Source: a virus. Taken from it: a stretch of DNA of 64,000 nt. This document shows, piece by piece, positions 13,744 through 62,978 of the stretch. The stretch spans positions 28,056 to 92,055 of the IMG/VR virus record IMGVR_UViG_3300036766_002289; one strand, given 5' to 3'. The position numbers and the translations under genes are program-made. A model generated the notes under the pieces. The model was not told the origin of the DNA. It did not search any database and worked only from the letters and a program-made list of their open reading frames with translations. Every line of letters begins with the position of its first letter. Within the stretch, counting starts at the first letter, position 1.

Positions 13744-13745
13744 CT

Positions 13746-31387: not shown

Positions 31388-31599
31388 GTTGGAACTATAG
31401 AATAATGAAGCATGTGGACGATGGCGAAACATGGTATGGAATACACGAAGTCATCTATGACGAAGGAAAACTTAGTTATACAGAGACTGCATTTGCAATT
31501 GGGGATAGCCCCGAAGAATTGAAGTCTGTGTGCGAGATGATGTGTGAAGCTTTCAAAAAACCTATTTTGGAGTATGAAAATGAGCGAGAATCTACTTAA
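31384..31599 (+). CDS. hypothetical protein
   Basis: ORF 71 aa. Confidence 0.35.
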   Translation: MSWNYRIMKHVDDGETWYGIHEVIYDEGKLSYTETAFAIGDSPEELKSVCEMMCEAFKKPILEYENEREST

Positions 31600-41082: not shown

Positions 41083-41419
41083 GAAAGTTGCTTTACAAAT
41101 TCAGGATTCGTGCTAGTATATATTGTTAGATGGGCAGTGTCCTCGACGGCTTGAGGGCTGGACTTATATTCCAGCACATGTGGTTCAACTCCATAACTGC
41201 CTACTTCATGAAGAATTTTTGGGTGAATACAATAGATCGGGCTTTAAGGCGATTAGGATACATGCCCGATACAATTAACGGTCTTTTAGATAAAGAAAAA
41301 GAAGCCGTTATCATTGAACAATACCTCTATATTTTGCGAGAAGATAATGAAGACTGTATGCCGCTTTCTTTGGAAGAGATGGCGGAATACGTCGTTGACT
41401 ACTTTAGAAAAGGTGTTAA

Positions 41420-43743: not shown

Positions 43744-44136
43744 ATGAACCAGGAACAAATCATCTCACAAGTTAAGACAGTCGTAACGGATTGCCTTAAT
43801 GTTGATGAGGACGAAATCACTCTAGATTCTAGGCTTAGTGCCGATTTGGGGGCAGAGTCCATCGACTTTTTGGATTTGACATTCAGACTTGAAAGACAAT
43901 TCAATATAAGAATCCCACATGGCGACTTGTTCCCAACTGACCTTTTTAGGGATTTAGATAATTGTGTCGAAGGTGGTAAAGTTACACCTAAAGGAATTGA
44001 CTTGCTGAAGAGTAAAATTCCTTTTGCTGATTTTTCTGAGTGGGAGAAAAACCCACAATATGCTACCGTTACGGATTCCTTTACCGTTGGGACTTTGGTA
44101 AAGTATATTGGGATGCAGCAAACCATTATCAGCTAG
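43744..44136 (+). CDS. acyl-carrier-protein-like (PP-binding) domain protein
   Basis: N-terminal about 80 aa with DLGAESIDFLDL (ACP Ser-attachment-like DSL/ESI helix II motif). Confidence 0.5.
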   Translation: MNQEQIISQVKTVVTDCLNVDEDEITLDSRLSADLGAESIDFLDLTFRLERQFNIRIPHGDLFPTDLFRDLDNCVEGGKVTPKGIDLLKSKIPFADFSEWEKNPQYATVTDSFTVGTLVKYIGMQQTIIS

Positions 44137-44272: not shown

Positions 44273-45049
44273 ATGGTAGAACCGAACCAAATATACTGCT
44301 GTGACTATCTTGAACTACTTAGGCAAATTCCAGATAACTCTGTATCCTTAGTGTTGTCAGACCCGCCTTTTGGTATCAACTATAGCAATAACTATACCAA
44401 AAAAAAGCATGAAGTCCTACAAGGCGATGCTAGCAAGTTCTCTTATCTAGAATTTGGCAAGGAAGCCTTCAGAATTCTTAAAGATGACACCGCAATCTTT
44501 GTTTTTACTGGCTGGAGCGAATATCCAGACCACTATAAACAATTAGAGTCTTGCGGATTCTCTATGAAGGAACCAATTATTTGCCAGAAGAGAGCTTCTG
44601 GCAAAACTGATTTATACGGTTCTTTTCAAACCAATTCCGATTGGATTATTTTTGCTCATAAGGGCAGATTTAAGTTCAGGAAGACTACTTTAGTAAAGAA
44701 TAAGAAGGCTGGTGTAATTCCTAATATTGGAAGGTCGCCCGTGCCAGAGTATAAAACGCGATTTCCCTCTTGTTGGTTTGGTGAAGAATATCCTTGGTCA
44801 AGTGAGAATTCTGCGTGGCAGAAGGTCAACGGGATTTATCACCCAACTATAAAAGGGCAAATGTTCCTGATGTGGTTGATCCTTTTATCTACAGAACCTG
44901 GGGATTTAGTTGTTGATCCTTTTGTTGGGTCTGGGACAACTGCTGTGGCAGCAAAAATGGCTGCTAGGCAGTTTTTTGCTAGTGACGTATCACCAGAGTT
45001 TTGTGAGCAAGCAAGGAAGCGATTGACATTGTGTGATTTTGTAGTATAG
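44273..45049 (+). CDS. DNA methyltransferase (beta-class N6-adenine/N4-cytosine)
   Basis: Motif IV DPPF (LSDPPFG) precedes motif I VVDPFVGSGTT. Confidence 0.7.
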   Translation: MVEPNQIYCCDYLELLRQIPDNSVSLVLSDPPFGINYSNNYTKKKHEVLQGDASKFSYLEFGKEAFRILKDDTAIFVFTGWSEYPDHYKQLESCGFSMKEPIICQKRASGKTDLYGSFQTNSDWIIFAHKGRFKFRKTTLVKNKKAGVIPNIGRSPVPEYKTRFPSCWFGEEYPWSSENSAWQKVNGIYHPTIKGQMFLMWLILLSTEPGDLVVDPFVGSGTTAVAAKMAARQFFASDVSPEFCEQARKRLTLCDFVV

Positions 45050-47385: not shown

Positions 47386-48189
47386 GTGCAACAGGAAATT
47401 GAAAAAAATATTATGAATAAGATTATCATTAAAAACGAGAAGCAAATAAGAGGTATTCGTAAAAGTTGTCAAATCGCAGCAGCAACTTTAGAATATGCTA
47501 AAAAATCTATTGCTGTAGGAATGACTACAGAAGAATTGGACAGGGCTATAGAAAACTTCATTAGGTCTAAGGGGGCGACTTCAGCGACATTAGAGTATAA
47601 AGGTTTTCATAAAGGTCAGCCAAAATTTCCAAAGAGTTGCTGTATTTCAGTAAATGAAGAAGTCTGTCATGCAATTCCAGATAGCTATATTATCAAAAAC
47701 GGAGACATAGTTAGTATAGATGTAGCTGTTATCTTGAATGGTTATTATGGTGATAATTGTACTACAGTTCCAGTTGGTAACATATCAGATGACGCCAGAC
47801 ATTTGATTGAGGTCGCTAAAAAATGCTTAGATTTAGGAATAAGACAAGTTGCTCCTGGTCGCAAAACTGGTGTGATTGGTCAAGCAATTTATCAATATGC
47901 AATTTTACAGGGCTGTACAATAGTAGAGGAATTTTGTGGTCATGGTGTAGGAATGGCTTTTCATGAACAACCACAAATTCTTCATGTTGCAAAACAAGAT
48001 GATGGTGATATAATGAAGCCTGGGATGATTTTCACCATAGAACCGATGGTCAATTTGGGCGGTCCTGAAGTAATAATGGATAATGATGACCAATGGACCG
48101 TTAGAACCGTGGACCAAAGTTTGTCGGCTCAATTTGAGCATTCGGTTCTGGTAACGACTAATGGATATGAAATACTAACTTTACCATGA
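47386..48189 (+). CDS. map: methionine aminopeptidase (type I)
   Basis: Conserved FCGHGVG, metal-ligand Asp/His/Glu context, overall MAP length. Confidence 0.8.
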   Translation: MQQEIEKNIMNKIIIKNEKQIRGIRKSCQIAAATLEYAKKSIAVGMTTEELDRAIENFIRSKGATSATLEYKGFHKGQPKFPKSCCISVNEEVCHAIPDSYIIKNGDIVSIDVAVILNGYYGDNCTTVPVGNISDDARHLIEVAKKCLDLGIRQVAPGRKTGVIGQAIYQYAILQGCTIVEEFCGHGVGMAFHEQPQILHVAKQDDGDIMKPGMIFTIEPMVNLGGPEVIMDNDDQWTVRTVDQSLSAQFEHSVLVTTNGYEILTLP

Positions 48190-48464
48190 TTTATTTTATA
48201 CTAATGGCCAACTGTTTGTCGATGGGTCTGGGGCTTTATCTCGCATTTGATGGACAATTTGTATTAAGCATCGTTTGTTTATTGATTTCATCAATAGGAT
48301 TTCGTCATCTTTGCATGGAAATTGATAAGCAGGCCCGAAGGAAGAAAAAAGAGAAGAGAATAAAACCAAAACTTGAAAAGTCGAAACCTAAAAAGGTGGA
48401 GAAGGTCAAGGAACAGATGAGTGTGGAAGCTCAACTTAGACTTAATAAGTTCTCCATTAACTAG
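48186..48464 (+). CDS. membrane protein with Lys-rich tail
   Basis: ORF 92 aa. Confidence 0.4.
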   Translation: MIYFILMANCLSMGLGLYLAFDGQFVLSIVCLLISSIGFRHLCMEIDKQARRKKKEKRIKPKLEKSKPKKVEKVKEQMSVEAQLRLNKFSIN

Positions 48465-48472
48465 GGGGCATT

Positions 48473-49231
48473 ATGTTAGAGATTATCGGCTCCGTCGCAA
48501 CTGTTTTGCTTATCATTTTGATTGTTGTCTCTCTTAAAAAGAGTGGCAAAATCGTTTTCATGGGCAGGTCTGAGAAAATAGATTTTGAAAAAGACATTAC
48601 TACCATTCCACCGATCCCCATATCTGCGGCCACTTGTAGCCATAGCTGGGATATAGTAGATGATAAATTGCTAGAAATGCCGCATGAGAAGAAGCATGTC
48701 CTGGTATTACAATGCCGTACTTGCGGAATGTTAGATAAGACTATGGCAGTGACTAGCACTGCGCCCAAACCGCTCCCACCCCCGCCGCTACCACCATGTA
48801 ATCATAGTTGGGTTGCAGTAACTGATAATACGCTTGATGTAGCACACGAAAAGAAAATTGTTGTTATCTTAACCTGCAAGAATTGTGGGGCTATAGAGAA
48901 GACTGTTGAGACCACTAGCAAAGCACCCCCGCCACCACAAGTTCCACTTCCAAAGGCTGAATGCCGCCATAAATGGGAAGTGGAAAAGAGAGTGTTGCTA
49001 GATTCTGCATACGAGCAAATGTTAGAGAGCATTAAGGTTAAGACAAGTTCTTATAGTAGTGCCAAAAAGGTTGACCCAAGTAAAGAATTAGATTTGGATT
49101 TAAATAAGGCACCAACTTGGATGTTTCAAAAGACTTATGTGTGTATCAGGGTTTGCACGTTATGTGGCGAGATTGATAAGACAATAGCTTCGAATTTTGA
49201 TAAAGAAGAAAACGAGGAGGAGATATCATGA
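48473..49231 (+). CDS. membrane-anchored protein with three internal C-x-H-x-W...C-x2-C-G repeats separated by Pro-rich linkers
   Basis: Repeats CSHSWDIV..CRTCG, CNHSWVAV..CKNCG, CRHKWEVE..CTLCGE. Confidence 0.5.
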   Translation: MLEIIGSVATVLLIILIVVSLKKSGKIVFMGRSEKIDFEKDITTIPPIPISAATCSHSWDIVDDKLLEMPHEKKHVLVLQCRTCGMLDKTMAVTSTAPKPLPPPPLPPCNHSWVAVTDNTLDVAHEKKIVVILTCKNCGAIEKTVETTSKAPPPPQVPLPKAECRHKWEVEKRVLLDSAYEQMLESIKVKTSSYSSAKKVDPSKELDLDLNKAPTWMFQKTYVCIRVCTLCGEIDKTIASNFDKEENEEEIS

Positions 49232-49406
49232 GCGAATTTACTTGGCCTTGGGAATGGGATTGGAATTGGCCTTTTGCCGCTATTTGTGGCGTTGGTCTGT
49301 TTGTCCTTGGAATCGTTCTACATCTTGTCTGTTTTCCTGGTATTGCTGCCATTATTATCGGCGGTGTAGTTGGTGCTTTTGCAGGAACTTATGAGTGGTT
49401 TGAACT

Positions 49407-49712
49407 ATGAAATCTCCATCAGTTTGCCCATGTTGCGGGCTTACTTGTTTCCAGGGACGGTTTAAGATATGTAAGAAAGAACATTGGGATTATCCTGATG
49501 ATGGTGCTGAAGTATGGTGCCAGTTTTGTAATACATGGTTTATGTGGAATGAAGAGAAACAGATTGCAAAAGTGATAGAGACCGCATTCCCGCGTGGCCA
49601 TAGGGGTAATAAGGGTGAGATTGTCGGCAAGCCGATTAAAGTTTTAGCAACGGCTGAATGGGATATGGTGTCGCAACAAAGAACCGACCAAGAAGACCTT
49701 ATCTGGGAGTAA
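49407..49712 (+). CDS. Cys-rich hypothetical protein
   Basis: CPCCG..C...CQFCN. Confidence 0.4.
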   Translation: MKSPSVCPCCGLTCFQGRFKICKKEHWDYPDDGAEVWCQFCNTWFMWNEEKQIAKVIETAFPRGHRGNKGEIVGKPIKVLATAEWDMVSQQRTDQEDLIWE

Positions 49713-49715
49713 ACT

Positions 49716-50060
49716 ATGAGTACGTTCAGTAGAGATATGGGTGAGTGTGTTTTGTACACGTTACTTAATCTTTCAGATGATAAAAATAACAATGATGGTC
49801 TACCGACCGAAATGGCTGGTTGGGTGAAAGAAAAAATTGAAGCTTTTGTTGTAAGTCCATACTCAGACATGGAGTTATATGATTTTCTTGATAGCGTAGC
49901 GAGGATTCCAATTGAAAGATTTGGTGGTGGTTGCGTAGGAGATATTAGTGGATTCATCCAGGCAGCGTGTGATGTTAAAAAATGTTATGACCGTCCCGAA
50001 GATGGTGATAAGAAGTTTCTTGATAAGGAAGAATGTAGGAAAAAATTGGAGAAAAGATGA
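49716..50060 (+). CDS. hypothetical protein
   Basis: ORF 114 aa. Confidence 0.4.
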   Translation: MSTFSRDMGECVLYTLLNLSDDKNNNDGLPTEMAGWVKEKIEAFVVSPYSDMELYDFLDSVARIPIERFGGGCVGDISGFIQAACDVKKCYDRPEDGDKKFLDKEECRKKLEKR

Positions 50061-50485
50061 CAGGCATATTTGGATTTTTTGAAGAATACAGGTTCCTTTC
50101 TAACTTTTACCCAGCCAAAGTTGAGTTCGATGGTCTGGAGTACAGTTCCACCGAACACGCATACCAAGCCGCTAAAACGGATGACCCTGCTGAAAGACGT
50201 AGAATCAGGGAAACCCAGAAATTTGGCGAAGCTAAGAGATTAGGAAAAAAAGTCAAGATACGTCCTGATTGGGAAAAGGTTAAGTTCGAAGTAATGGAGG
50301 ACTTAGTAAGACAGAAGTTTACTAAGCATAAAGAGTTAAAGGAAAAGCTCTTGGAAACAGGCGACCAATACTTAGAAGAGACAAACACTTGGGGCGATAA
50401 AATTTGGGGAGTCTGCAAAGGTGTAGGGCAGAATCATCTTGGGAAAATCCTAATGAAAATTAGGGGAGAATTAAGAAATGAGTGA
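50057..50485 (+). CDS. NADAR (YbiA/DUF1768) domain protein
   Basis: FLSNFYPA..F.G..YSSTEHAYQAAK signature. Confidence 0.6.
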   Translation: MTGIFGFFEEYRFLSNFYPAKVEFDGLEYSSTEHAYQAAKTDDPAERRRIRETQKFGEAKRLGKKVKIRPDWEKVKFEVMEDLVRQKFTKHKELKEKLLETGDQYLEETNTWGDKIWGVCKGVGQNHLGKILMKIRGELRNE

Positions 50486-50768
50486 TATTCAAACAGGGAT
50501 TCGCTATACTATTCAACGACAGGGATTTAGTTATGATGAAGAAGAAAGGGAATGGACAACTTGTTATCATGAGGGTAACTTGATTGACACTCCAGACCGT
50601 GAATGGATTGCAGCTATGATGGAGTTTTTATCTAAAACAGAAAGAAAATCTTATCGTTTCCGTATATTGAAAATTGAGACGAGTGTTATAGGCATGGACA
50701 CGATTAGGGAAGCAATTATTGCGGACCTTGTTAAGTCTGCATATGGGGATCAATCTAAGCCCCATTAA
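50478..50768 (+). CDS. hypothetical protein
   Basis: ORF 96 aa. Confidence 0.4.
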   Translation: MSDIQTGIRYTIQRQGFSYDEEEREWTTCYHEGNLIDTPDREWIAAMMEFLSKTERKSYRFRILKIETSVIGMDTIREAIIADLVKSAYGDQSKPH

Positions 50769-51081
50769 GAAAATCTTTATACCTGTCTTTAAGCTCTTGA
50801 TAGTTTTTCTTTTTTTGGGTGCCCTGTCGGAATAGGCAAAGAATAATTGTACTAAAGAAATTGTAGGCTTTGCCTTTTTCTCTGTCATATCTTGGCAGTT
50901 TGTCGAAACAAATCATGACTGCTTCTTGGATATAGTCATCTCGGTCGGTGAGTATTTTCTTAATGTCTAAACCATTAACTATTCGCTCTGCGACCCAATA
51001 AAAAGCTTCGCAGAGCTTGTCTTCACTTATTTTATTATCTAAAAAATCAGAAACTGCTTGTTCAAATTCTGAAGCATTCAT
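50755..51081 (-). CDS. minimal sigma-factor-like protein (sigma70 region 2 only; T4 gp55-like)
   Basis: IQEAVMICFDKLPRYDREKGKAYNFFSTIILCLFRQ resembles sigma70 region 2.1-2.2; minus strand. Confidence 0.45.
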   Translation of the reverse strand: MNASEFEQAVSDFLDNKISEDKLCEAFYWVAERIVNGLDIKKILTDRDDYIQEAVMICFDKLPRYDREKGKAYNFFSTIILCLFRQGTQKKKNYQELKDRYKDFLNGA

Positions 51082-51884: not shown

Positions 51885-51934
51885 ATTAGTTATATACTAT
51901 TGACGCAGTGCATTTTTTTTGCTACTATTGGGGA

Positions 51935-52825
51935 ATGAGCAATATCTATGAAACAAATGTACCTAATTTTGTTTGCAAACGGGGCAAGGTACGGGACACT
52001 TATGCCTATGGTGATACGATGTTAATCATCGTAACTACCGATAGAATAAGTGCTTTTGATTGGGTATTTCCAAATACCACAATTCGAGATAAAGGAAAAA
52101 TTCTTCAAGGTATATCATCTTATTGGGCTGATGCTTTGAATTTAAGGTATCATGAGATCAATACTGACTTGAACCATCTGCCAGAAGATTTTAGAAAACC
52201 AGAATTTGAAGGCAGGGCAATGTTGGTGGAAAAAGCGGATGTTATCCCTTTTGAATGCGTGGTTCGTGGATACTTAGCTGGTTCAGCATGGAAAGAATAC
52301 AAGCAAACAGGTGAAGTTTGCGGTATTAAGTTGCCAAGCGGTCTTAAAGAAAATCAACATCTTATAAAGCCACTTTTTACACCCGCTACTAAAGCAGAAT
52401 CAGGGCACGATCAAAATGTAACTTTTGACTATATGGCAGGTAAGATTGGTCTTGACTTAGCCGCCGAACTAGAATCTTTGAGTTTGGATATTTATTCAGA
52501 AGCATCCCAGATAGCCTGGAATCGTGGTATCATAATAGCCGATACTAAGTTCGAATTTGGTGTATTGCCACATTCTAGCAATGTATTGATACTGATAGAC
52601 GAAGTTTTAACACCCGATAGCTCTCGTTTCTGGCCATTAGAAGATTATAAATTAGATGGGCCTATTAACTCATTCGATAAACAATTTGTGCGTGATTTCA
52701 TAGAGCAATCAGGGTGGGATAAGAATAGTCCCCCACCAGCATTACCAGAAGACGTTATAATGAAGACTAGGGACAAATACTTAGAAGCTTATGAAAAAAT
52801 AACGGGGCACAGTTTATGCAAATAA
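51935..52825 (+). CDS. purC: phosphoribosylaminoimidazole-succinocarboxamide (SAICAR) synthase
   Basis: TTDRISAFD motif and overall similarity; ATG 51935 chosen over the listed GTG 51908. Confidence 0.8.
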   Translation: MSNIYETNVPNFVCKRGKVRDTYAYGDTMLIIVTTDRISAFDWVFPNTTIRDKGKILQGISSYWADALNLRYHEINTDLNHLPEDFRKPEFEGRAMLVEKADVIPFECVVRGYLAGSAWKEYKQTGEVCGIKLPSGLKENQHLIKPLFTPATKAESGHDQNVTFDYMAGKIGLDLAAELESLSLDIYSEASQIAWNRGIIIADTKFEFGVLPHSSNVLILIDEVLTPDSSRFWPLEDYKLDGPINSFDKQFVRDFIEQSGWDKNSPPPALPEDVIMKTRDKYLEAYEKITGHSLCK

Positions 52826-54054: not shown

Positions 54055-54485
54055 TGAAAAGTTGGCAGGAACAGTGTGCTGAAATCATTAGTTTCCTAGA
54101 AGACATTTTCAAAGAAACAAAATATCGTATTGTTTTCAGAAAATATGAGACTGACCAAAAAGAAGATGAATGGTTATTCTTTGTTGAATCAATACGTGGC
54201 GATGGTGGACGCCATGATGGGACTGCGATTACATGGGTGAGTGTTGGTGGCAAAAACATAGAAGAATTGCCTGGTTTGTTGCTTCTGAAAGCACAACAAC
54301 GTGTTAATGAATGGCAGCAAGAAGGTCTAAAAGAAGTGGAAAAGAAAGCTTTAGAATTAGAGAAAGCTAAGAATGAACTAGACAAAAGACTAAACACTAA
54401 GATGGATAGTCTTGCAAAGAGAGTGAACAATGGATGTAAAGCAAGTGATTGTGATTCGCCGCGACCTGAAAATGCGGAGGGGTAA
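54054..54485 (+). CDS. hypothetical coiled-coil protein
   Basis: ORF 143 aa. Confidence 0.45.
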   Translation: MKSWQEQCAEIISFLEDIFKETKYRIVFRKYETDQKEDEWLFFVESIRGDGGRHDGTAITWVSVGGKNIEELPGLLLLKAQQRVNEWQQEGLKEVEKKALELEKAKNELDKRLNTKMDSLAKRVNNGCKASDCDSPRPENAEG

Positions 54486-54846
54486 GGAATGTAGCCAAGC
54501 TGCACATGCAGCTATGATATGGCTAACTAGTAGAATTAGAACCAAACCAAATTGGATCATAAGATTCTTTCTATGGCTTTTTAGACGAACTGCCGCAATA
54601 CGTTTATCTACGGAAGAACAAGAATGGATTGATGGGTCTTTTACTAAAATCACTTTACAAGTGGATAGTCAAGATGAGTTGCTGAGATATTACACTATGG
54701 CTAAGTCGAAAGGTTTAACAGTAAGTTTGGTTACAGATGCAGGTAAAACAGAATTTAATGGCGTACCTACTTTCACTGCGATAGCTATTGGACCCCATGA
54801 AGCTTCTAGGATAGATGAAGTAACAAGAAGTTTAAAACTTTATTAA
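54430..54846 (+). CDS. peptidyl-tRNA hydrolase, PTH2 family
   Basis: VIVIRRDLKMRRGKECSQAAHAA matches the PTH2 N-terminal signature. Confidence 0.6.
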   Translation: MDVKQVIVIRRDLKMRRGKECSQAAHAAMIWLTSRIRTKPNWIIRFFLWLFRRTAAIRLSTEEQEWIDGSFTKITLQVDSQDELLRYYTMAKSKGLTVSLVTDAGKTEFNGVPTFTAIAIGPHEASRIDEVTRSLKLY

Positions 54847-55529: not shown

Positions 55530-58500
55530 GTGCAAGAGGTATTATATGACCGCATCGAAGTAACTTCCACGACCACGGGGTTAGGTGCGTTTGTTCTGCT
55601 GGGCGCGACCCCTGGCAATAGGCCATTCTCCATAGTTCCAGATGGAGATTCTATACCTTATTGTATAACCAATAATATCGACTATGAAATGGGTCTTGGA
55701 ACCGTCTCAGCAGGCGGCTCGATCCTTAGTAGAGACAAAGTTCTATCTAGCACCGCTGGTGGCGCGTTCATTAATTGGCCAGCAGGAACAAAAGAAGTAT
55801 TCCTAACAGCTACTTCAGACTTATTAACGCAAATAAATGTAGAATCTACACTAATCACCAGAGAAATGATTTCTGGTGGTCGTGCTGTTAATGTCAATAC
55901 ATCAGGATTAGCACAAATTGCTATGGCTGGCGATCCTACAAGAATGCCAGCCATTGGTGTAATGATAGACAACACCCTTTCTGGGCAACCAGCCAGAATT
56001 TATACCCGTTCACATCTATATTCAGATAAATTTAGTTATTCTGGCTATATTGGTTCTGAACTTTGGGTAGGAACTTCTGGTGATATAGTAACATCTGGTG
56101 GGATATCAGGCAATGTCCAGCAAATATTAGGCGTTGTAATCGCTCAATCTGGAATTTATTTGTCTCCTTCATTCCAAGTTCCTGGTACAACATTTAGTTT
56201 AACCTCTGGCATCATTACATCTGGGTTTATAGGCGATAATGCTGTCAATAGCGGCAACATTTCTAGTGGGCAAGTTGGCCAGTTTCACCTTGCTTCAGGT
56301 GCGGTTAATTCAGGGCATATTAGTAGCGGTGCAGTACAAGGTTTCTTTGGTAGCACAAGACACATAGCTTCAGGCACACTTGGCGTGTTTGATTTCGGCT
56401 CTGGCGCAGTAATAGCTGGTGCTGTTGGCTCAGGCGCAATTGTATCAGGAAATATAGCGTCAGGTCAAGTTGGCCAATTCCATATATCCTCTGGTGCCGT
56501 AACAAGTGGTAGATTAGGCGTTACTGGAACCCCAGACGGTACTAAGTTCTTAAGAGACGACTTCACATGGGCCACTCCAACTGTTGTAAGCGGTGCAATT
56601 CAATCAGGCATGATTGCTTCAGGTGCAGTCCAAGGCTTTTTTGGAAGTACAAGGAATATTGCTTCAGGAACAGTAGGTGTATTTGATTTTGGTAGTGGTG
56701 CAGTTATAGCAGGAACAGTTGGCAGTGGTGCAATTGTAAGTGGAAACATCGCTTCAGGTCAAGTCGGTCAATTCCATCTAGCGAGTGGTGCAGTTAATTC
56801 GGGTCACATAGGAAATAATGCTGTTGTAAGTGGTTCCATTGCATCTGGCCAGGTAAATACATATCACTTCGGTTCTGGAGCAACCGTTACAAGGGCACAA
56901 TTTGTCGCTCCATTTGTAAGCGGTACCCCTTGGACCGTAACTACAGAAGAAACCATATCTGGTGTAAGAGCAGTTGCATTTAGCCAAAGTGGTAATCTAG
57001 TAATTGCTATGGCAGGTGTTTCTGGTCGTGGCCCTGCAATAGGCATTGTAGTTGATAATGTTGCAAGTGGTACTCAAGCTAATGTTTATACTGTTGGGCC
57101 GCTACAATTTACTAGCGGCTTAGGTGATTATAGTGGTTATTTGGGTCAACCATTATACGTTGGACGTTCAGGACAAATTGTAACTGCGAGCGGTAGCTTC
57201 AATAGTGGTGGCTTCTTATCTGGTGATACGTTCCAGCAAATAGGTTATGCTTGGACTAGTGGTGGTGCCTTAATTGGCGTAAATGACCCTGTAATCAGCG
57301 GCGGCGTCCCATCATTAACTTCTGGCTTAGTACAATCTGGCAACATAGCATCTGGTGCAGTCCAGGGATTCTTTGGCAGCACAAGAAACATAGCTTCTGG
57401 TACAGTCGGCGTCTTCGATTTTGGTTCAGGCGCAGTTATAGCTGGGACAGTTGGCTCAGGTGCAATTGTAAGCGGAAACATCGCAAGCGGTCAAATAGGT
57501 CAGTTTCACATTGCAAGTGGTGCAGTTAATTCAGGTCATATAGGTAACAACGCAGTTGTATCAGGCTCAATTGCTTCTGGGCAGATCGGACAATTCCACA
57601 TTGCAAGTGGTGCAGTTAATTCTGGCCATATAGCATCAGGTGCCGTACAAGGTTTTTTTGGTTCAACAAGAAACATAGCAAGTGGTACTATAGGCGTTTT
57701 CGATTTCGGGTCTGGTGCTGTTATAGCAGGAACCGTTGGTAGTGGTGCAATTGTAAGTGGAAATATTGCTTCGGGTCAAGTCGGCCAGTTCCATATTTCT
57801 TCTGGTGCTGTAACAAGCGGCAGATTAGGAGTGACAGGAACACCAGACGGAACTAGATTCTTAAGAGACGATTTTGTTTGGGCTACTCCTACCGCAGCAG
57901 GTGTTACTAGCGGTGGCATTCAATCAGGTATGATTGCATCTGGCGCAGTCCAGGGCTTCTTTGGCTCAACAAGACACATAGCTTCGGGCACAGTAGGTGT
58001 ATTTGATTTTGGTTCAGGCGCAGTTATAGCTGGGACCGTTGGCAGTGGCGCAATTGTAAGTGGTAACATAGCAAGTGGTCAAATAGGTCAATTCCATCTT
58101 GCAAGCGGGGCTGTTAATTCAGGGCATATTGGCAACAACGCAGTCGTAAGTGGCTCAGTTGCAAGTGGTCAGTTATCAACATATCATTTCGGTTCTGGTG
58201 CAACGGTCACTAGGGCACAGTTTGTTTCGCCGTTCGTTAGCGGTACATCTTGGACAGCAATTACGGAAGAAACTATATCTGGTGTTCGTGCAGTTGCATT
58301 TAGTCAAAGCGGTAATTTAAGAATCGCAATGGCTAGCGTTTCGGGCAGAGGACCAGCCATTGGTGTAGTTATAGATAATGTTCTAAGCGGTTTACAGGCT
58401 AATGTTTATACTGTTGGTGCAGTCCAATTTACTAGTGGTTTAGGTGATTATAGTGGTTACATTGGTCAGCCATTATACGTAGGACGTTCAGGACAAGTTG

Positions 58501-61500
58501 TTACTGCGAGCGGTAGCTTCAACAGTGGCGGGTTCTTGTCTGGGGAAATGCTACAACAAATTGGTGTGGCATGGACAAGTGGTGGAGCATTAATTGGTGT
58601 GAATGACCCAATTGTTAGTGGTAGCGTTCCAGCATTAACTTCTGGTCTAGTCCAGTCTGGAAACATAGCATCTGGCGCAGTCCAAGGCTTTTTTGGAAGT
58701 ACAAGAAATATAGCTTCAGGCACAGTCGGTGTATTTGATTTTGGTTCAGGCGCAGTTATAGCAGGAACCGTTGGTAGTGGTGCAATTGTAAGTGGTAATA
58801 TAGCTTCAGGCCAAATTGGTCAATTCCACCTTGCATCTGGCTCAGTAACAAGTGGTGCAATTGCAAGTGGACAAGTAGGCCAGTTTGCTCATTCTTCTGG
58901 TGCAATTAATTCAGGACATGTATCTTCTGGTGCCGTTCAAGGTTTCTTTGGCTCAACAAGACACATAGCTTCAGGCACAATAGGCGTATTTGATTTCGGC
59001 TCAGGCGCAGTTATAGCAGGAACCGTTGGCAGTGGAGCAATTGTAAGTGGTAATATAGCTTCAGGTCAAGTTGGTAATTTTGCCATATCTTCTGGCGCAG
59101 TAACAAGTGGGCGATTAGGCGTCACAGGAACCCCAGATGGAACTAAGTTTTTAAGGGATGACTTTACTTGGTCCAGCCCAATTATAAGTGGCAGCATTCA
59201 ATCAGGCATGATTGCTTCAGGTGCAGTGCAAGGCTTCTTTGGAAGTACGAGAAATATTGCTTCAGGCACTGTAGGCGTGTTTGATTTTGGTTCGGGTGCA
59301 GTTATAGCTGGGACCGTTGGCAGTGGCGCAATTGTAAGTGGAAATATTGCTTCAGGCCAAATTGGTCAATTCCACCTTGCAAGTGGTGCAGTTAATTCGG
59401 GTCATATAGGTAATAATGCAGTTGTAAGCGGTTCAGTTGCCAGTGGCCAACTTTCAATATATCATTTCGCATCAGGAGCAACAGTCACAAGGGCACAGTT
59501 CGTTGCTCCATTTGTAAGTGGTACATCTTGGACAGTAATTACAGAAGAAACCATATCTGGTGTAAGAGCAGTTGCATTTAGCCAAAGTGGCACACTTAGA
59601 GTTGCAATGGCCAGTATTTCTGGTCGATATCCAGCAATCGGTGTCGTTGTAGACAACGTTCTAAGTGGTTTACAGGCCAACGTTTACACTGTTGGCCCAT
59701 TGCAGTTTACTAGTGGTTTAGGCGATTATAGTGGTTATTTGGGTCAACCACTATATGTTGGTCGTTCAGGACAAGTTGTAACCGCGAGCGGTAGTTTCAA
59801 TAGCGGTGGATTATTGTCTGGCGATATGACCCAGCAAATAGGTTTTGCTTGGACAAGCGGTGGCGCACTCATAGAAGTAAATGCACCATTTGTAAGTGGT
59901 GGTGTCCCAGCATTAACAAGTGGCTTAGTCCAATCTGGTAACATAGCATCAGGTGCAGTACAAGGTTTCTTCGGCTCTACTAGGAATATTGCAAGTGGAA
60001 CCGTAGGCGTCTTCGATTTTGGTTCAGGCGCAGTTATAGCAGGGACCGTTGGCAGCGGTGCAATTGTAAGTGGAAACATCGCTTCAGGTCAGATAGGTCA
60101 ATTCCACTTGGCTTCTGGTTCAGTAACAAGTGGTGCAATAGCAAGTGGACAAGTAGGCCAGTTTGCTCATTCAAGTGGCAGTGTAACGAGTGGTGCAATA
60201 GCTTCAGGTCAAGTTGGTCAATTTGCTCATTCTTCTGGCGCAATTAATAGTGGTCATGTTTCAAGTGGTGCGGTCCAGGGCTTCTTTGGCTCAACAAGAC
60301 ACATCGCTTCAGGCACAGTAGGCGTATTTGATTTTGGTAGTGGTGCAGTAATAGCAGGAACCGTTGGTAGCGGTGCAATTGTAAGCGGTAATATAGCAAG
60401 TGGTCAAGTAGGACAGTTCCACCTATCATCAGGCAGTGTAACTTCAGGTGCCATTTCAAGTGGTGTTGTAGGTCAGTTTGCACTTTCAAGTGGCTCAGTA
60501 ACAAGCGGTGCGATTTCAAGTGGTCAAGTAAATACTTATCATTTCGGCAGTGGTGCAACTGTCACTAGGGCACAATTCGTCGCTCCATTTGTAAGTGGTA
60601 CATCTTGGACAGTAATTACAGAAGAAATAATTTCAGGTGTAAGAGCAGTTGCATTAAGCCAAAGCGGTACTTTAAGGGTCGCTATGGCCAGTATTTCTGG
60701 TCGATACCCAGCAATCGGTGTGGTCGTAGACAACGTTCTAAGCGGTTTACAAGCTAATGTATACACTGTAGGACCGCTCCAGTTTACAAGCGGGTTGGGT
60801 GATTATAGTGGTTATTTGGGTCAACCATTATATGTTGGTCGTTCAGGACAAGTTGTTACTTCAAGCGGCAGCTTCAATAGTGGTGGATTGCTTTCTGGTG
60901 ATATGACCCAGCAAATAGGTTACGCCTGGACTAGTGGCGGTGCCTTAATAGAGGTCAATGCACCATTTGTAAGTGGTAGTGTTCCGTCATTAACAAGTGG
61001 TTTAGTCCAGAGTGGCAATATTGCTAGTGGTGCCGTACAAGGCTTCTTCGGAAGTACGAGAAACATAGCTTCAGGCACAGTAGGTGTATTTGATTTTGGT
61101 TCTGGTGCAGTTATAGCAGGAACAGTTGGTTCAGGTGCAATTGTAAGCGGAAATATAGCTTCAGGCCAAATTGGTCAATTCCACCTTGCAAGTGGCAGTG
61201 TAACTTCAGGTGCAATAGCAAGTGGACAAGTAGGCCAGTTCGCCCTTTCAAGTGGTTCAGTAACGAGTGGTGCAATAGCTTCAGGTCAAGTAGGACAATT
61301 TGCTCATTCTTCTGGCGCAATTAATAGTGGTCATGTTTCAAGTGGCGCAGTCCAGGGCTTCTTTGGCTCGACAAGACATATAGCAAGTGGTACTGTAGGC
61401 GTGTTTGATTTTGGTTCAGGTGCAGTTATAGCAGGAACAGTTGGCAGTGGAGCAATTGTAAGCGGTAATATAGCTTCAGGCCAAGTAGGACAATTTCATC

Positions 61501-62978
61501 TATCATCAGGCAGTGTAACTTCAGGTGCTATATCTTCGGGTGTTGTAGGCCAATTTGCACTAAGTTCTGGCTCAGTAACGAGTGGTGCAATATCATCTGG
61601 TCAAGTAAACACTTACCATTTTGGTTCTGGAGCAACAGTAACTAGGGCACAATTTGTTGCTCCATTTGTGAGTGGAACATCTTGGACAATAATTACAGAA
61701 GAAACTATATCAGGCGTAAAAGCAGTAGCACTAAGCCAGAGTGGCACACTTAGAGTTGCAATGGCCAGTATTTCTGGTCGATATCCAGCAATCGGTGTCG
61801 TTGTAGACAACGTTCTAAGTGGTTTACAAGCTAATGTATACACTGTTGGTCCGCTCCAGTTTACTAGCGGGTTAGGCGATTATAGTGGTTACATTGGTCA
61901 GCCATTGTATGTTGGTCGTTCAGGACAAGTTGTAACAAGCTCTGGCAGCTTCAACAGTGGTGGATTGTTGTCTGGCGATATGACCCAGCAAATAGGTTTT
62001 GCTTGGACAAGTGGCGGCGCACTCATAGAGGTTAATGCCCCATTTGTAAGCGGTGGAACTCCAACTTTAACATCAGGTATAGTCCAAAGTGGCAACATCG
62101 GTTCGGGTGCAGTCCAAGGCTTCTTTGGCAGTACACGTAACATAGCTTCAGGCACAGTCGGTGTATTTGACTTTGGTTCAGGTGCAGTTATAGCAGGAAC
62201 AGTTGGTAGCGGTGCAATTGTAAGCGGAAACATTGCAAGTGGTCAGATTGGTCAATTCCACTTGGCTTCTGGTTCAGTAACTTCAGGTGCAATAGCAAGT
62301 GGACAAGTAGGCCAGTTTGCTCTAAGTTCAGGCTCTGTAACAAGTGGTGCAATTGCTTCTGGGCAGATAAGTCAGTTTAAGTTAGCATCAGGTGCGGTTA
62401 ATAGTGGCCATATTGGTTCTGGTGCAGTCCAAGGCTTTTTTGGCTCAACAAGACACATCGCTTCAGGCACAGTGGGCGTATTTGATTTTGGTAGTGGTGC
62501 AGTAATAGCAGGAACAGTTGGGTCTGGTGCAATTGTAAGTGGAAATGTCGCAAGTGGTCAAATAGCAGATTTCCATTTTGCATCTGGTGCAAAAATAAAC
62601 GTGGCGGGTTGGATCACTGATACAGCATTGGTTGCAGGTACGCCAATTTCTGGCAGCTGTGCAGTTTCTGTTGACGCAAGTGGCCACCTAATTCAAAGTA
62701 ACCCAACACTATCTGGTCAGTTCCCAATTTATGGCATTGCAGACGGGGCACTTGTGTCTGGTTCTGCTGGTATTATAAGATTAATGGGACCATTTACATC
62801 TACAGAGTTTAACTTCTCTGGCAGTATCGGTAGAGTTTTGTATGTCGGTTTAAGTGGTCAAATAACCCCAACAATGCCTTCACTATCTGGTGTCTTTACA
62901 CAGAAAGTTGGCATTGCAACTAGCCATTCTGGTATGTTGGTTAGAATAGATAACCAATTCATACAAATTGGCTTATAA
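55530..62978 (+). CDS. giant repeat protein (2482 aa), putative tail fibre/adhesin
   Basis: Single ORF; five or more tandem units of about 360-440 aa, each built from about 60-aa SGAVQGFFGSTRNIASGTVGVFDFGSGAVIAGTVGSGAIVSGNIASGQ subrepeats; unique N- and C-terminal domains. Confidence 0.8.
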   Translation: MQEVLYDRIEVTSTTTGLGAFVLLGATPGNRPFSIVPDGDSIPYCITNNIDYEMGLGTVSAGGSILSRDKVLSSTAGGAFINWPAGTKEVFLTATSDLLTQINVESTLITREMISGGRAVNVNTSGLAQIAMAGDPTRMPAIGVMIDNTLSGQPARIYTRSHLYSDKFSYSGYIGSELWVGTSGDIVTSGGISGNVQQILGVVIAQSGIYLSPSFQVPGTTFSLTSGIITSGFIGDNAVNSGNISSGQVGQFHLASGAVNSGHISSGAVQGFFGSTRHIASGTLGVFDFGSGAVIAGAVGSGAIVSGNIASGQVGQFHISSGAVTSGRLGVTGTPDGTKFLRDDFTWATPTVVSGAIQSGMIASGAVQGFFGSTRNIASGTVGVFDFGSGAVIAGTVGSGAIVSGNIASGQVGQFHLASGAVNSGHIGNNAVVSGSIASGQVNTYHFGSGATVTRAQFVAPFVSGTPWTVTTEETISGVRAVAFSQSGNLVIAMAGVSGRGPAIGIVVDNVASGTQANVYTVGPLQFTSGLGDYSGYLGQPLYVGRSGQIVTASGSFNSGGFLSGDTFQQIGYAWTSGGALIGVNDPVISGGVPSLTSGLVQSGNIASGAVQGFFGSTRNIASGTVGVFDFGSGAVIAGTVGSGAIVSGNIASGQIGQFHIASGAVNSGHIGNNAVVSGSIASGQIGQFHIASGAVNSGHIASGAVQGFFGSTRNIASGTIGVFDFGSGAVIAGTVGSGAIVSGNIASGQVGQFHISSGAVTSGRLGVTGTPDGTRFLRDDFVWATPTAAGVTSGGIQSGMIASGAVQGFFGSTRHIASGTVGVFDFGSGAVIAGTVGSGAIVSGNIASGQIGQFHLASGAVNSGHIGNNAVVSGSVASGQLSTYHFGSGATVTRAQFVSPFVSGTSWTAITEETISGVRAVAFSQSGNLRIAMASVSGRGPAIGVVIDNVLSGLQANVYTVGAVQFTSGLGDYSGYIGQPLYVGRSGQVVTASGSFNSGGFLSGEMLQQIGVAWTSGGALIGVNDPIVSGSVPALTSGLVQSGNIASGAVQGFFGSTRNIASGTVGVFDFGSGAVIAGTVGSGAIVSGNIASGQIGQFHLASGSVTSGAIASGQVGQFAHSSGAINSGHVSSGAVQGFFGSTRHIASGTIGVFDFGSGAVIAGTVGSGAIVSGNIASGQVGNFAISSGAVTSGRLGVTGTPDGTKFLRDDFTWSSPIISGSIQSGMIASGAVQGFFGSTRNIASGTVGVFDFGSGAVIAGTVGSGAIVSGNIASGQIGQFHLASGAVNSGHIGNNAVVSGSVASGQLSIYHFASGATVTRAQFVAPFVSGTSWTVITEETISGVRAVAFSQSGTLRVAMASISGRYPAIGVVVDNVLSGLQANVYTVGPLQFTSGLGDYSGYLGQPLYVGRSGQVVTASGSFNSGGLLSGDMTQQIGFAWTSGGALIEVNAPFVSGGVPALTSGLVQSGNIASGAVQGFFGSTRNIASGTVGVFDFGSGAVIAGTVGSGAIVSGNIASGQIGQFHLASGSVTSGAIASGQVGQFAHSSGSVTSGAIASGQVGQFAHSSGAINSGHVSSGAVQGFFGSTRHIASGTVGVFDFGSGAVIAGTVGSGAIVSGNIASGQVGQFHLSSGSVTSGAISSGVVGQFALSSGSVTSGAISSGQVNTYHFGSGATVTRAQFVAPFVSGTSWTVITEEIISGVRAVALSQSGTLRVAMASISGRYPAIGVVVDNVLSGLQANVYTVGPLQFTSGLGDYSGYLGQPLYVGRSGQVVTSSGSFNSGGLLSGDMTQQIGYAWTSGGALIEVNAPFVSGSVPSLTSGLVQSGNIASGAVQGFFGSTRNIASGTVGVFDFGSGAVIAGTVGSGAIVSGNIASGQIGQFHLASGSVTSGAIASGQVGQFALSSGSVTSGAIASGQVGQFAHSSGAINSGHVSSGAVQGFFGSTRHIASGTVGVFDFGSGAVIAGTVGSGAIVSGNIASGQVGQFHLSSGSVTSGAISSGVVGQFALSSGSVTSGAISSGQVNTYHFGSGATVTRAQFVAPFVSGTSWTIITEETISGVKAVALSQSGTLRVAMASISGRYPAIGVVVDNVLSGLQANVYTVGPLQFTSGLGDYSGYIGQPLYVGRSGQVVTSSGSFNSGGLLSGDMTQQIGFAWTSGGALIEVNAPFVSGGTPTLTSGIVQSGNIGSGAVQGFFGSTRNIASGTVGVFDFGSGAVIAGTVGSGAIVSGNIASGQIGQFHLASGSVTSGAIASGQVGQFALSSGSVTSGAIASGQISQFKLASGAVNSGHIGSGAVQGFFGSTRHIASGTVGVFDFGSGAVIAGTVGSGAIVSGNVASGQIADFHFASGAKINVAGWITDTALVAGTPISGSCAVSVDASGHLIQSNPTLSGQFPIYGIADGALVSGSAGIIRLMGPFTSTEFNFSGSIGRVLYVGLSGQITPTMPSLSGVFTQKVGIATSHSGMLVRIDNQFIQIGL
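56918..62750 (+). repeat. tandem 1.1-1.3 kb DNA repeats inside the giant gene (about 85-95% identical)
   Basis: Unit landmarks at about 56918, 58238, 59515, 60592 and 61671. Confidence 0.7.

What the first reader, a model, noticed from the sequence alone, without database searches (positions are those of the whole stretch)
50057..50485. NADAR/YbiA-domain protein, candidate anti-defence (ADP-ribose processing)
The FLSNFYPA...YSSTEHAYQAAK signature identifies a NADAR domain. NADAR enzymes reverse DarT-type guanine ADP-ribosylation of DNA and process ADP-ribose conjugates. In a phage context this is a plausible counter-defence gene.
Basis: partly seen in the sequence, partly recalled or inferred. 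Interest (0 to 1): 0.55.

Follow-up and report, generated by a model that had tools for sequence, protein, structure and literature searches.

The report
Stand-alone NADAR hydrolase in huge phage
This is a real, intact gene for a small NADAR enzyme (one that cuts ADP-ribose off DNA/RNA bases) in a roughly 590-kb "huge" phage; it most likely strips a host defence's toxic ADP-ribose marks, a phage counter-defence trick that has already been published, so it is a sound but fairly ordinary find.

Summary
Window 50057..50485 (+) encodes a 142-aa protein that is a full-length NADAR domain (Pfam PF08719, E=2.3e-30). Its predicted fold is confident (pLDDT 96.4) and matches E. coli YbiA (TM 0.88) and the Phytophthora NADAR:ADP-ribose complex (TM 0.83).

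Every published ADP-ribose-binding or catalytic position is kept. The subfamily-diagnostic residue is Glu (E108). That makes it a YbiA/NADAR "Glu-type" enzyme, not a DarG1 antitoxin (Asp) or a T4 AdfN (His).

The closest experimentally tested relative is NADAR^Bas32 of T5-like phages (44% identity, same PHROG 1017). That protein rescues phages from DarTG1 and neutralises DarT1.

The gene belongs to a huge phage. The exact protein is on record on a 590,099-bp contig, and the nearest public record is LR756511.1 (595 kb). It holds a conserved slot between methionine aminopeptidase and SAICAR synthase in five related contigs and is under strong purifying selection. No ADP-ribosyltransferase, macrodomain or riboflavin gene was found in the window.

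The DarTG part has precedent; the Thoeris part has none. Verdict: new member of a known kind, low-to-moderate interest.

The parts
50057..50485 (+). NADAR-domain CDS, 142 aa plus stop. It is a stand-alone minimal core with no N-terminal extension.
   Evidence: ORF. Pfam NADAR E=2.3e-30. AF2 pLDDT 96.4, with secondary structure starting at residue 3. Foldseek hits to YbiA and PnNADAR.
50048..50051 (+). GGAG Shine-Dalgarno-like motif 5 nt upstream of the ATG. The ATG overlaps the upstream ORF's TGA (ATGA at 50057-50060).
   Evidence: Read directly from the sequence. No function was tested.
50153..50155 (+). Codon for E33, equivalent to PnNADAR E43, T4 AdfN E36 and SCO5665 E87. This residue positions the distal ribose.
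   Evidence: Alignment to 8bau. Invariant in A1 and A2. AdfN E36A is inactive in vivo (PMC11257639).
50174..50176 (+). Codon for K40, equivalent to PnNADAR K50 and T4 AdfN K43. This residue binds the pyrophosphate.
   Evidence: AdfN K43A and E. coli C7 K95 mutants lose function.
50378..50380 (+). Codon for E108, equivalent to PnNADAR E125 and SCO5665 E167. This is the catalytic, subfamily-diagnostic residue (Glu type).
   Evidence: Alignment. Glu in the window protein, both LR756511 NADARs, the Bas32-type protein and YbiA, but His in T4 gp30.3. Invariant in 42 homologues. Literature.
50396..50407 (+). Codons for D114 to W117 (sequence D-K-I-W), equivalent to PnNADAR D130 and W133, which are pyrophosphate contacts.
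   Evidence: alignment. D114 is invariant and W117 at least 90% conserved.
47386..50768 (+). Tightly packed run of co-directional genes that contains the NADAR: MetAP (47386-48189), then ORFs of 92, 252, 60, 101 and 114 aa, then NADAR, then a 96-aa ORF. Starts and stops overlap or abut, so this is probably one transcription unit (an inference).
   Evidence: ORF coordinates. Gene calls on the identical Logan contig L001. Pfam scan of the neighbours.
47386..48189 (+). Methionine aminopeptidase (Peptidase_M24), the conserved left-hand marker of the NADAR locus.
   Evidence: Pfam E=2.1e-50. Found in the same relative position in L002, L007, L010 and L011.
51908..52825 (+). SAICAR synthase (PurC), the conserved right-hand marker of the NADAR locus.
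   Evidence: Pfam E=4e-65. Same relative position in L002, L007 and L011.

Best explanation
The gene encodes a catalytically competent, stand-alone Glu-type NADAR. This is an ADP-ribosyl N-glycohydrolase that cuts the bond between ADP-ribose and a nucleobase, releasing free ADP-ribose and restoring the base. The established substrate is guanine N2; for Glu-type enzymes cytosine is also a substrate; both DNA and RNA are accepted.

In this huge phage it most likely acts as an 'orphan antitoxin'. It would remove ADP-ribose that a host ADP-ribosyltransferase defence (DarT1-type or another guanine/cytosine-directed ART) puts on phage nucleic acid, so that replication and expression can continue.

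Shown here: the gene, the fold, the intact active site, the subfamily, its conservation and purifying selection in a huge-phage clade, and its relationship to NADAR^Bas32.

Inferred: the enzymatic activity, the physiological substrate and the counter-defence role.
For: - Full-length NADAR domain and fold.
- All ADP-ribose-contacting and catalytic positions of PnNADAR (E43, K50, R79, W89, R93, E125, D130, W133; PMC11543638) map to E33, K40, K64, W72, K76, E108, D114 and W117 (alignment). S15, E33, K40, W72, E108 and D114 are invariant in 42 homologues, and K76 and W117 are at least 90% conserved.
- All NADAR subfamilies tested so far hydrolyse guanosine-ADPr in vitro, including E. coli YbiA (PMC11125620). 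Glu-type members also remove cytidine-ADPr from DNA and RNA (PMC12945103).
- All three phage NADARs tested (T4 AdfN, Bas32, Bas60) overcome DarTG1 (PMC11257639).
- The window protein is 44% identical (E=5e-40) to the T5-like NADAR, which is 100% identical to the copy in HildyBeyeler (Bas33). Bas32 and Bas33 encode identical NADARs.
- Both fall in phrog_1017, and the Bas32-type protein is the sister of the window clade in a rough NJ tree.
- NADAR^Bas32 is likewise a minimal protein of about 149 aa with no N-terminal extension, yet it neutralises DarT1 in cells.
- The gene is phage-borne with no adjacent toxin, i.e. an orphan. It is retained at a conserved locus in five related huge-phage contigs, with pN 0.166 against pS 0.857.
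Against:
- The host is unknown, so it is unknown whether it carries DarT1 or any nucleic-acid ART.
- The protein scores above the curated cutoff of TIGR02464, 'riboflavin biosynthesis intermediates N-glycosidase'.
- It is 65% identical to a chromosomal gene of a Phycisphaerae MAG that sits among housekeeping genes.
- It lies between metabolic and translation-type auxiliary genes (MetAP, PurC), not in a recognisable anti-defence cluster.
- In vitro activity does not guarantee in vivo protection. [quoted passage not shown]
- Two ADPr-contacting Arg residues of PnNADAR are Lys here (K64, K76). YbiA also has Lys at the second of these positions.
Confidence: 0.6

Rival explanations
1. Metabolic 'damage-control' enzyme. 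[quoted passage not shown] On this reading it is an auxiliary metabolic gene rather than a counter-defence.
For: - TIGR02464 (riboflavin biosynthesis intermediates N-glycosidase) scores 91.4 bits against a cutoff of 73.7.
- The best PDB sequence and fold match is YbiA.
- It has the Glu of the YbiA subfamily.
- A 65%-identical homologue lies in a housekeeping chromosomal context.
- Its neighbours are auxiliary metabolic or translation genes (MetAP, PurC).
- One relative has a faint nucleoside-hydrolase-like gene directly upstream.
Against: - No riboflavin-pathway gene (RibA, RibD etc.) was found among roughly 125 ORFs of the window scanned with Pfam.
- YbiA itself hydrolyses G-ADPr and C-ADPr nucleic acid, so the TIGR name does not exclude the ADP-ribose function.
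- The nearest tested relative, NADAR^Bas32, is a proven anti-DarTG1 factor.
Confidence: 0.12
2. RNA-directed de-ADP-ribosylase. It would protect the translation apparatus (host or phage tRNA, rRNA or mRNA) from RNA-targeting ART toxins rather than protecting phage DNA.
For: - NADARs are the only hydrolase family shown to reverse guanosine ADP-ribosylation of RNA (PMC11833690).
- Glu-type NADARs act on G- and C-ADPr RNA, and E. coli YbiA prefers RNA over DNA for G-ADPr.
- The gene sits in a translation-rich region: 39 tRNA genes at 8.3-46.4 kb, MetAP 1.9 kb upstream and PTH2 4 kb downstream.
Against: - The context is only loosely linked.
- No RNA ligase, KptA/Tpt1, 2H or macro partner was detected.
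- No phage NADAR has yet been shown to counter an RNA-targeting defence.
Confidence: 0.13
3. Degrader of low-molecular-weight ADP-ribose-derived immune signals or toxins, for example Thoeris/TIR cyclic ADPR isomers or ADPr-1''-P. Here the enzyme would act on a soluble N-glycosidic ADPr derivative.
For: This is a bioinformatic proposal for phage NADAR, Macro, SLOG and Nudix proteins (PMC9503650).
Against: - No experimental example for any NADAR turned up in the papers read.
- There is no co-located SLOG, Macro, Nudix or DUF4326 gene, which is the association on which that proposal rests.
- Known anti-Thoeris proteins are of other kinds (my own knowledge).
Confidence: 0.07
4. Eraser for the phage's own ADP-ribosyltransferase. 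It would be part of a phage-internal writer/eraser pair, or immunity against a phage-encoded ART toxin.
For: NADARs pair with ARTs in DarT1-NADAR and YarT-YbiA modules. Large phages often carry ARTs.
Against: - No ART-family hit among the window's ORFs.
- No ART next to the orthologues in five related contigs.
- The remaining roughly 526 kb of the genome could not be examined.
Confidence: 0.05

Closest known systems
NADAR^Bas32 (T5-like phages Bas32 IrisVonRoten and Bas33 HildyBeyeler), an orphan phage NADAR that counters DarTG1 (Johannesman, Carlson & LeRoux 2024, PMC11257639)
   Same: - Phage-encoded, stand-alone, minimal-core NADAR of about 145 aa with no toxin partner.
- 44% identity over 134 residues.
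- Same PHROG, 1017.
- Glu at the diagnostic position, with all catalytic residues shared.
- Sister group in the NJ tree.
   Different: - Only 44% identical, and from an unrelated phage lineage (a huge phage of about 590 kb against a 110-kb Demerecviridae phage).
- Different neighbours: the T5-like copy sits among nucleotide-metabolism and replication genes, while this one sits between MetAP and PurC.
- Activity of the window protein is untested.
E. coli YbiA (PDB 2B3W; COG3236/TIGR02464)
   Same: - Best structural match: TMq 0.88.
- 36% identity.
- Glu-type active site.
- YbiA hydrolyses G-ADPr and C-ADPr on DNA and RNA in vitro.
   Different: - YbiA is a chromosomal gene in a LexA-controlled operon with dinG, rhlE and ybiB.
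- It is known as a riboflavin-intermediate N-glycosidase and did not protect against DarT1 in cells.
- YbiA is 160 aa, with about 15 extra N-terminal residues.
AdfN, T4 gp30.3 (Pfam PF08010, phrog_652)
   Same: It is a phage orphan NADAR that removes ADP-ribose from phage DNA and defeats DarTG1. It has the same fold class and shares the Glu and Lys residues (E36/K43 in AdfN, E33/K40 here).
   Different: - Only 23% identity.
- His instead of Glu at the diagnostic position.
- Different Pfam and PHROG families: PF08010 scores only 21.8 bits against a cutoff of 36.
- T4-type enzymes remove G-ADPr but not C-ADPr, and AdfN works only in the Tevenvirinae context.
DarG1, the DarT1-associated (BC4488) NADAR antitoxin (Schuller et al. 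2023, PMC11543638)
   Same: Same superfamily and same chemistry (guanine-ADPr hydrolysis). It is the conceptual origin of the 'orphan antitoxin' idea.
   Different: - DarG1 has Asp at the diagnostic position.
- It has a conserved basic N-terminal beta-beta-alpha extension proposed to bind ssDNA.
- It is encoded next to DarT1.
The window protein has none of these three features.

Membership tests
NADAR superfamily (Pfam PF08719 / DUF1768) | Sequence score above the Pfam gathering threshold over the whole domain | tested here: met
   106.4 bits against 35.1, covering profile positions 9-163 of 163, E=2.3e-30.
NADAR superfamily (Pfam PF08719 / DUF1768) | Alpha-helical core flanked by small beta-sheets (YbiA-like fold) | tested here: met
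   AF2 pLDDT 96.4. Foldseek gives 2b3w TMq 0.88 and 8bau TMq 0.83, and nothing else is significant.
NADAR superfamily (Pfam PF08719 / DUF1768) | Conserved Ser, Glu and Lys of the substrate channel plus the ADPr pyrophosphate contacts (Pn K50, R79, W89, R93, D130, W133) | tested here: met
   S15, E33, K40, W72, D114 and W117 are identical. R79 and R93 are replaced conservatively by K64 and K76 (literature).
NADAR superfamily (Pfam PF08719 / DUF1768) | ADP-ribosyl-nucleobase glycohydrolase activity | not testable with these tools
   Needs a purified-protein assay on G-ADPr and C-ADPr oligonucleotides.
YbiA / Glu-type NADAR subfamily | Glutamate at the position of PnNADAR E125 (Asp in BC4488/DarG1, His in T4-like phage NADARs) | tested here: met
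   E108 aligns with Pn E125 and with the Glu of YbiA and Bas32-type, while T4 has His. Invariant in 42 homologues.
YbiA / Glu-type NADAR subfamily | Score above the cutoff of NCBIfam TIGR02464 (riboflavin-intermediate N-glycosidase domain) | tested here: met
   91.4 bits against 73.7. This is a sequence criterion only.
YbiA / Glu-type NADAR subfamily | Fusion to, or neighbourhood with, riboflavin-pathway genes (RibA/RibD), or the LexA operon context of E. coli ybiA | tested here: not met
   No riboflavin, DinG or RhlE-like family among the window ORFs scanned. The E. coli context is shown.
DarG1 (DarT1-associated BC4488 NADAR antitoxin) | Aspartate at the diagnostic position | tested here: not met
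   It is Glu (E108) here.
DarG1 (DarT1-associated BC4488 NADAR antitoxin) | Basic N-terminal beta-beta-alpha extension in front of the YbiA core | tested here: not met
   The protein is 142 aa and its core secondary structure starts at residue 3.
DarG1 (DarT1-associated BC4488 NADAR antitoxin) | Encoded next to a DarT1 ADP-ribosyltransferase | tested here: not met
   Flanking ORFs have no ART hit. The same holds in four related loci.
AdfN, T4 gp30.3 type (PF08010, phrog_652) | Membership of PF08010 / phrog_652 and His at the diagnostic position | tested here: not met
   PF08010 scores 21.8 bits against a cutoff of 36. phrog_652 reaches only 1.1e-7, against 9.5e-48 for phrog_1017. The residue is Glu, not His.
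Phage orphan NADAR counter-defence factors of the Bas32 type (phrog_1017) | Phage-encoded, no cognate toxin, and the same sequence family as NADAR^Bas32 | tested here: met
   Huge-phage origin. No ART neighbour. Both proteins match phrog_1017. 44% identity.
Phage orphan NADAR counter-defence factors of the Bas32 type (phrog_1017) | Rescues phage replication from DarTG1 and neutralises DarT1 | not testable with these tools
   Requires plaque and toxicity assays like those in PMC11257639.
DS-32 NADAR anti-phage protein (NCBIfam NF053876) / PADLOC PDC-M42C | Score above the equivalog cutoff, and presence of partner genes of the system | tested here: not met
   54.4 bits against a cutoff of 240. 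The PADLOC hit, E=6.7e-17, reflects generic NADAR similarity. No partner genes were seen.

The most novel reading that the evidence does not exclude
In this clade of roughly 590-620-kb phages, the vertically inherited Glu-type NADAR would not be an anti-DarT1 factor. It would instead be a broad G/C-base de-ADP-ribosylase acting on DNA and RNA. Its role would be to shield the phage's own translation investment (dozens of tRNAs, MetAP, PTH2) or its genome from a still-undescribed nucleic-acid ADP-ribosylating defence of a non-model host, possibly a Planctomycetota-like one given the 65%-identical cellular homologue. That would point to a new class of ART-based immunity.
Probability: 0.12. Interest if true: 0.55.

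Novelty: new member of a known kind. Interest (0 to 1): 0.25.

Why it matters
If the prediction holds, the 'orphan antitoxin' NADAR counter-defence extends from model coliphages (T4, T5-like, rV5-like) to the largest known phages of uncultivated hosts. It would also imply that base-ADP-ribosylating defences are a selective pressure in those hosts.

The Glu-type active site predicts dual guanine/cytosine specificity. That is a cheap, testable distinction from T4 AdfN.

Otherwise the gene is a routine annotation. [quoted passage not shown]

Tried and rejected
- **Megablast:** window 45-56 kb against the phage collection gave no match. The phage lineage was found only at protein level (LR756511.1).
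- **NAD-salvage lead:** a Pfam NAPRTase_N hit turned out to be a fragment of about 35 aa at the end of a 96-aa ORF (28382-28669) with no continuation in any frame. I rejected it as a functional partner.
- **Second NADAR:** I looked for one in the window because the LR756511 relative has one 10 kb upstream. tblastn and two HMMs found none.
- **Promoter/terminator scan of 46.5-53.5 kb:** counts equal those of shuffled sequence (22 against 22.1, and 6 against 4.5), so it is uninformative.
- **Partner genes:** no ART, DarT, Macro, Nudix, SLOG, KptA, RNA ligase or riboflavin genes were found among about 125 window ORFs.
- **DS-32 / PDC-M42 defence-system membership:** rejected on score.
- **Reference alignment:** the supplement of PMC11257639 with the reference NADAR alignment is not held, so placement relied on my own rough NJ tree.
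- **Literature search for LR756511:** nothing found.
- **Local scripting:** several fetched loci (L002, L004-L006) were not available to scripts, so the dN/dS sequence was pasted in by hand. Whole-genome scans of the relative were not attempted.

Full report
**Observation.** The ORF list shows an ATG-initiated ORF at exactly 50057..50485 on the + strand, 142 aa. The raw sequence shows GGAG at 50048-50051, 5 nt before the ATG. The ATG overlaps the TGA of the upstream 114-aa ORF (ATGA), and the downstream 96-aa ORF starts 8 nt before the NADAR stop. The gene therefore sits in a tightly packed co-directional string, 47386-50768.

**Identity of the domain.**
- Pfam NADAR (PF08719) matches end to end: E=2.3e-30, 106 bits against a cutoff of 35.
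- PHROG 1017 matches at 9.5e-48.
- NCBIfam TIGR02464 ('riboflavin biosynthesis intermediates N-glycosidase' domain) scores 91.4 against a cutoff of 73.7.
- The defence-system model DS32_2 scores 54 against a cutoff of 240, and PADLOC PDC-M42C gives a generic hit.
- In the PDB, the only sequence matches are E. coli YbiA (2b3w, 1.9e-17) and the Phytophthora nicotianae NADAR (8bau, 1.3e-9).
- An AlphaFold2 model built on 42 homologues is very confident: mean pLDDT 96.4, pTM 0.89.
- Foldseek against the PDB returns only those two structures: TMq 0.88 with rmsd 2.0 Å, and TMq 0.83.
- The fold starts at residue 3. There is no N-terminal extension of the kind that DarT1-linked NADARs use as a putative ssDNA-binding surface.

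**Active site.** Schuller et al. 2023 (PMC11543638) list the ADP-ribose contacts of PnNADAR as K50, R79, W89, R93, W133 and D130, with E43 and E125 on the distal ribose. E125 is the subfamily marker: Glu in the YbiA family, Asp in the DarT1-associated BC4488 family, and His in T4-like phage NADARs.
- From the HMMER alignment to 8bau, where the chain index equals the paper's number plus 2, these residues map to K40, K64, W72, K76, W117, D114, E33 and E108 of the window protein.
- In a MAFFT alignment with E. coli YbiA, T4 gp30.3, the T5-like phage NADAR and both NADARs of the related huge phage, E33, K40, W72 and D114 are invariant. Position 108 is Glu everywhere except T4 gp30.3, which has His.
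- Among 42 close homologues, S15, E33, K40, W72, E108 and D114 are invariant, and K76 and W117 are at least 90% conserved.
- Mutagenesis in the literature shows the equivalents of E33 and K40 are needed in vivo (AdfN E36A and K43A). The equivalent of E108 is essential: SCO5665 E167Q/D and E. coli C7 D171A/N lose activity.

The enzyme therefore looks catalytically competent. It is a Glu-type NADAR, not a DarG1-type or AdfN(T4)-type one.

**Where it comes from.**
- The exact protein is on record on a 590,099-bp contig.
- The nearest public record is LR756511.1, 'uncultured phage', 595,163 bp, with a 76%-identical orthologue.
- The window carries 39 tRNA genes. Nearly all its genes are on the + strand, and GC is about 0.38-0.45.
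- In the window and in four related contigs (parts of assemblies up to 623 kb), the NADAR lies in the same slot: DUF2784 on the minus strand, then methionine aminopeptidase, then one to about twelve small variable genes, then NADAR, then (in most of them) three minus-strand genes, then SAICAR synthase.
- Against the LR756511 orthologue, synonymous sites are saturated (pS 0.857) while pN is 0.166. That indicates long-term purifying selection on a vertically inherited gene.
- The relative also has a second, PnNADAR-like paralogue about 10 kb upstream. The window has only one NADAR.
- A 65%-identical cellular homologue sits in a Phycisphaerae MAG chromosome among an aminotransferase, MutS and HisRS.

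**Surroundings.** Pfam scans of about 125 window ORFs found no ADP-ribosyltransferase, DarT, macrodomain, Nudix, SLOG, KptA, RNA ligase or riboflavin gene. The immediate neighbours (ORFs of 101, 114 and 96 aa) have no family assignment. The gene is thus a stand-alone 'orphan'. The promoter/terminator scan was no better than shuffled sequence.

**What is known.**
- Every NADAR subfamily tested (DarT1-linked, sigma70-linked, YbiA, T4 phage) removes ADP-ribose from guanosine in vitro, though only some protect cells from DarT1 (PMC11125620).
- NADARs also reverse guanosine ADP-ribosylation of RNA (PMC11833690).
- Glu-type members (the NADAR and YbiA families) additionally remove cytidine-ADPr from DNA and RNA. 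Asp-type (DarG1) and His-type (T4) enzymes do not (PMC12945103).
- Johannesman et al. (PMC11257639) showed that T4 gp30.3 (AdfN) and two unrelated phage NADARs, NADAR^Bas32 and NADAR^Bas60, overcome DarTG1 defence. The latter two also neutralise DarT1 without phage.
- The T5-like phage NADAR I retrieved (L004) is 100% identical to the copy in HildyBeyeler (MZ501074), which is Bas33. The paper states that Bas32 and Bas33 encode identical NADARs.
- The window protein is 44% identical to it (E=5e-40). That compares with 36% to YbiA and 23% to T4 gp30.3.
- Both the window protein and the Bas32-type protein belong to phrog_1017, whereas AdfN belongs to phrog_652.
- In a rough BLOSUM-distance NJ tree, the Bas32-type protein is sister to the window's clade.

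**Mechanism proposed.** The enzyme binds the ADP-ribose moiety through K40, K64, W72, K76, D114 and W117. It positions the distal ribose with E33 and uses E108 to hydrolyse the N-glycosidic bond between ribose C1'' and the exocyclic amine of guanine. For a Glu-type enzyme, cytosine is also predicted as a substrate. The reaction releases ADP-ribose and restores the base. During infection this would erase marks placed on phage nucleic acid by a host ART defence such as DarT1. The gene, fold, residues and conservation are shown here. The activity, substrate and role are inferred by homology to tested enzymes. I put this at about 0.6.

**Rivals.**
- A YbiA-like metabolite N-glycosidase, at 0.12. 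It is supported by TIGR02464 and the housekeeping context of the cellular homologue, and weakened by the absence of riboflavin genes and by YbiA's own ADPr-hydrolase activity.
- An RNA-directed eraser protecting the translation apparatus, at 0.13, suggested by the tRNA/MetAP/PTH2-rich region and the RNA data.
- A degrader of soluble ADPr-derived signals such as Thoeris messengers, at 0.07. This is a prediction only.
- An eraser for a phage-encoded ART elsewhere in the unexamined genome, at 0.05.

**Novelty and verdict.** The concept (phage orphan NADAR as anti-DarT1 factor) was published in 2023-2024, and NADARs are common in large phages. This is therefore a new member of a known kind. Three things are mildly new:
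- its residence in a huge-phage clade at a conserved MetAP-PurC locus;
- its Glu-type active site, which predicts G and C specificity on both DNA and RNA;
- its close cellular homologue.

Interest is 0.25.

Noticed in passing
window 8345-46458: There are 39 tRNA genes, all on the + strand, many in tight arrays at 8.3-11.4 kb. Isoacceptors are duplicated (for example 3 Pro, 4 Lys, 4 Arg, 3 Asn). There is a tRNA-Ile with anticodon TAT at 41132-41204 and an 85-nt tRNA-Lys call at 13660-13744 that overlaps ORFs. This is typical of huge phages but a striking density.
   Followed up: no
window 55530-62978 (+): A giant 2482-aa ORF has no Pfam family at E<=0.001. It coincides with a step up in GC content, from about 0.38 to 0.45, between 56 and 64 kb.
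   Followed up: partly
window 28382-28669 (+): A 96-aa ORF ends with about 35 residues ([31 protein letters not shown]) that match the start of the nicotinate phosphoribosyltransferase N-terminal domain (Pfam NAPRTase_N, E=8.4e-8). It then hits a stop, and no frame continues the enzyme. It looks like a remnant or truncated NAD-salvage gene.
   Followed up: partly
window 29316-30107 (+): A 263-aa ORF with no Pfam hit has a C-terminal third that is an extreme Ser/Gly/Asp/Cys low-complexity tract (…SSPDSSDSGSSPSSCGGSSSPDSGSSDSGSSSSSDSGSS…).
   Followed up: no
window 48473-49231 (+): This 252-aa protein lies 0.8 kb upstream of the NADAR. By eye it has three internal repeats, each with a C..(H)(S/K)W … HEKK … C..CG … KT pattern (zinc-ribbon-like). 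Pfam gives only sub-threshold zinc-ribbon hits (RNHCP, Zn_ribbon_RPB9). A homologous-length gene of 244 aa occupies the same place in L010.
   Followed up: no
window 50755-51081 (-): A small 108-aa minus-strand protein just downstream of the NADAR has a weak Sigma-70 region 2 match (E=0.0017, below cutoff). It is the first of three minus-strand genes (108, 72 and 140 aa). Relatives also carry three minus-strand genes at this position, matching in size only in L010.
   Followed up: no
window 5238-5885 (+) and another ORF in 1-32 kb: There is a ThiF-family E1-like protein (E=4.5e-31), and a prokaryotic JAB-domain hit elsewhere in the first half of the window. Together these suggest a ubiquitin-like conjugation/deconjugation pair. 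The first half also has a SIMPL/DUF541 protein, an ion-channel protein and an SPFH/Band 7 protein (31544-32464).
   Followed up: no
window 47386-48189, 51908-52825, 54430-54846, 43744-44136, 44273-45049, 25490-26596, 20601-21503: The window carries a set of auxiliary genes: methionine aminopeptidase, SAICAR synthase (PurC), peptidyl-tRNA hydrolase PTH2, an acyl-carrier-type PP-binding protein, an N6/N4 DNA methyltransferase, an ATP-dependent DNA ligase, and a DUF559/MTES_1575 endonuclease-like protein with an HTH.
   Followed up: partly
L002 113-595 (contig of the LR756511.1 lineage): The related 595-kb phage carries a second, different NADAR of 160 aa about 10 kb upstream of the orthologue. 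It has an insertion (GMREGEPGIEDRNNW) and groups with the Phytophthora stand-alone NADAR in the NJ tree. It is absent from the window.
   Followed up: partly
L011 5101-5949 and 6987-9638: In a more distant relative (a 143-kb contig), the NADAR is preceded by a gene with a faint inosine-uridine nucleoside-hydrolase match. It is followed by an 883-aa protein with major vault protein domains (Vault_3, MVP_shoulder) and a class-I release factor.
   Followed up: no
L008 8001-8522 (Phycisphaerae MAG GCA_035275405.1): A 65%-identical 173-aa NADAR lies in an ordinary bacterial chromosomal context (aminotransferase, MutS, CCA-adding enzyme, HisRS). This hints at recent exchange between this phage clade and Planctomycetota-like bacteria, and gives a possible host clue.
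   Followed up: partly
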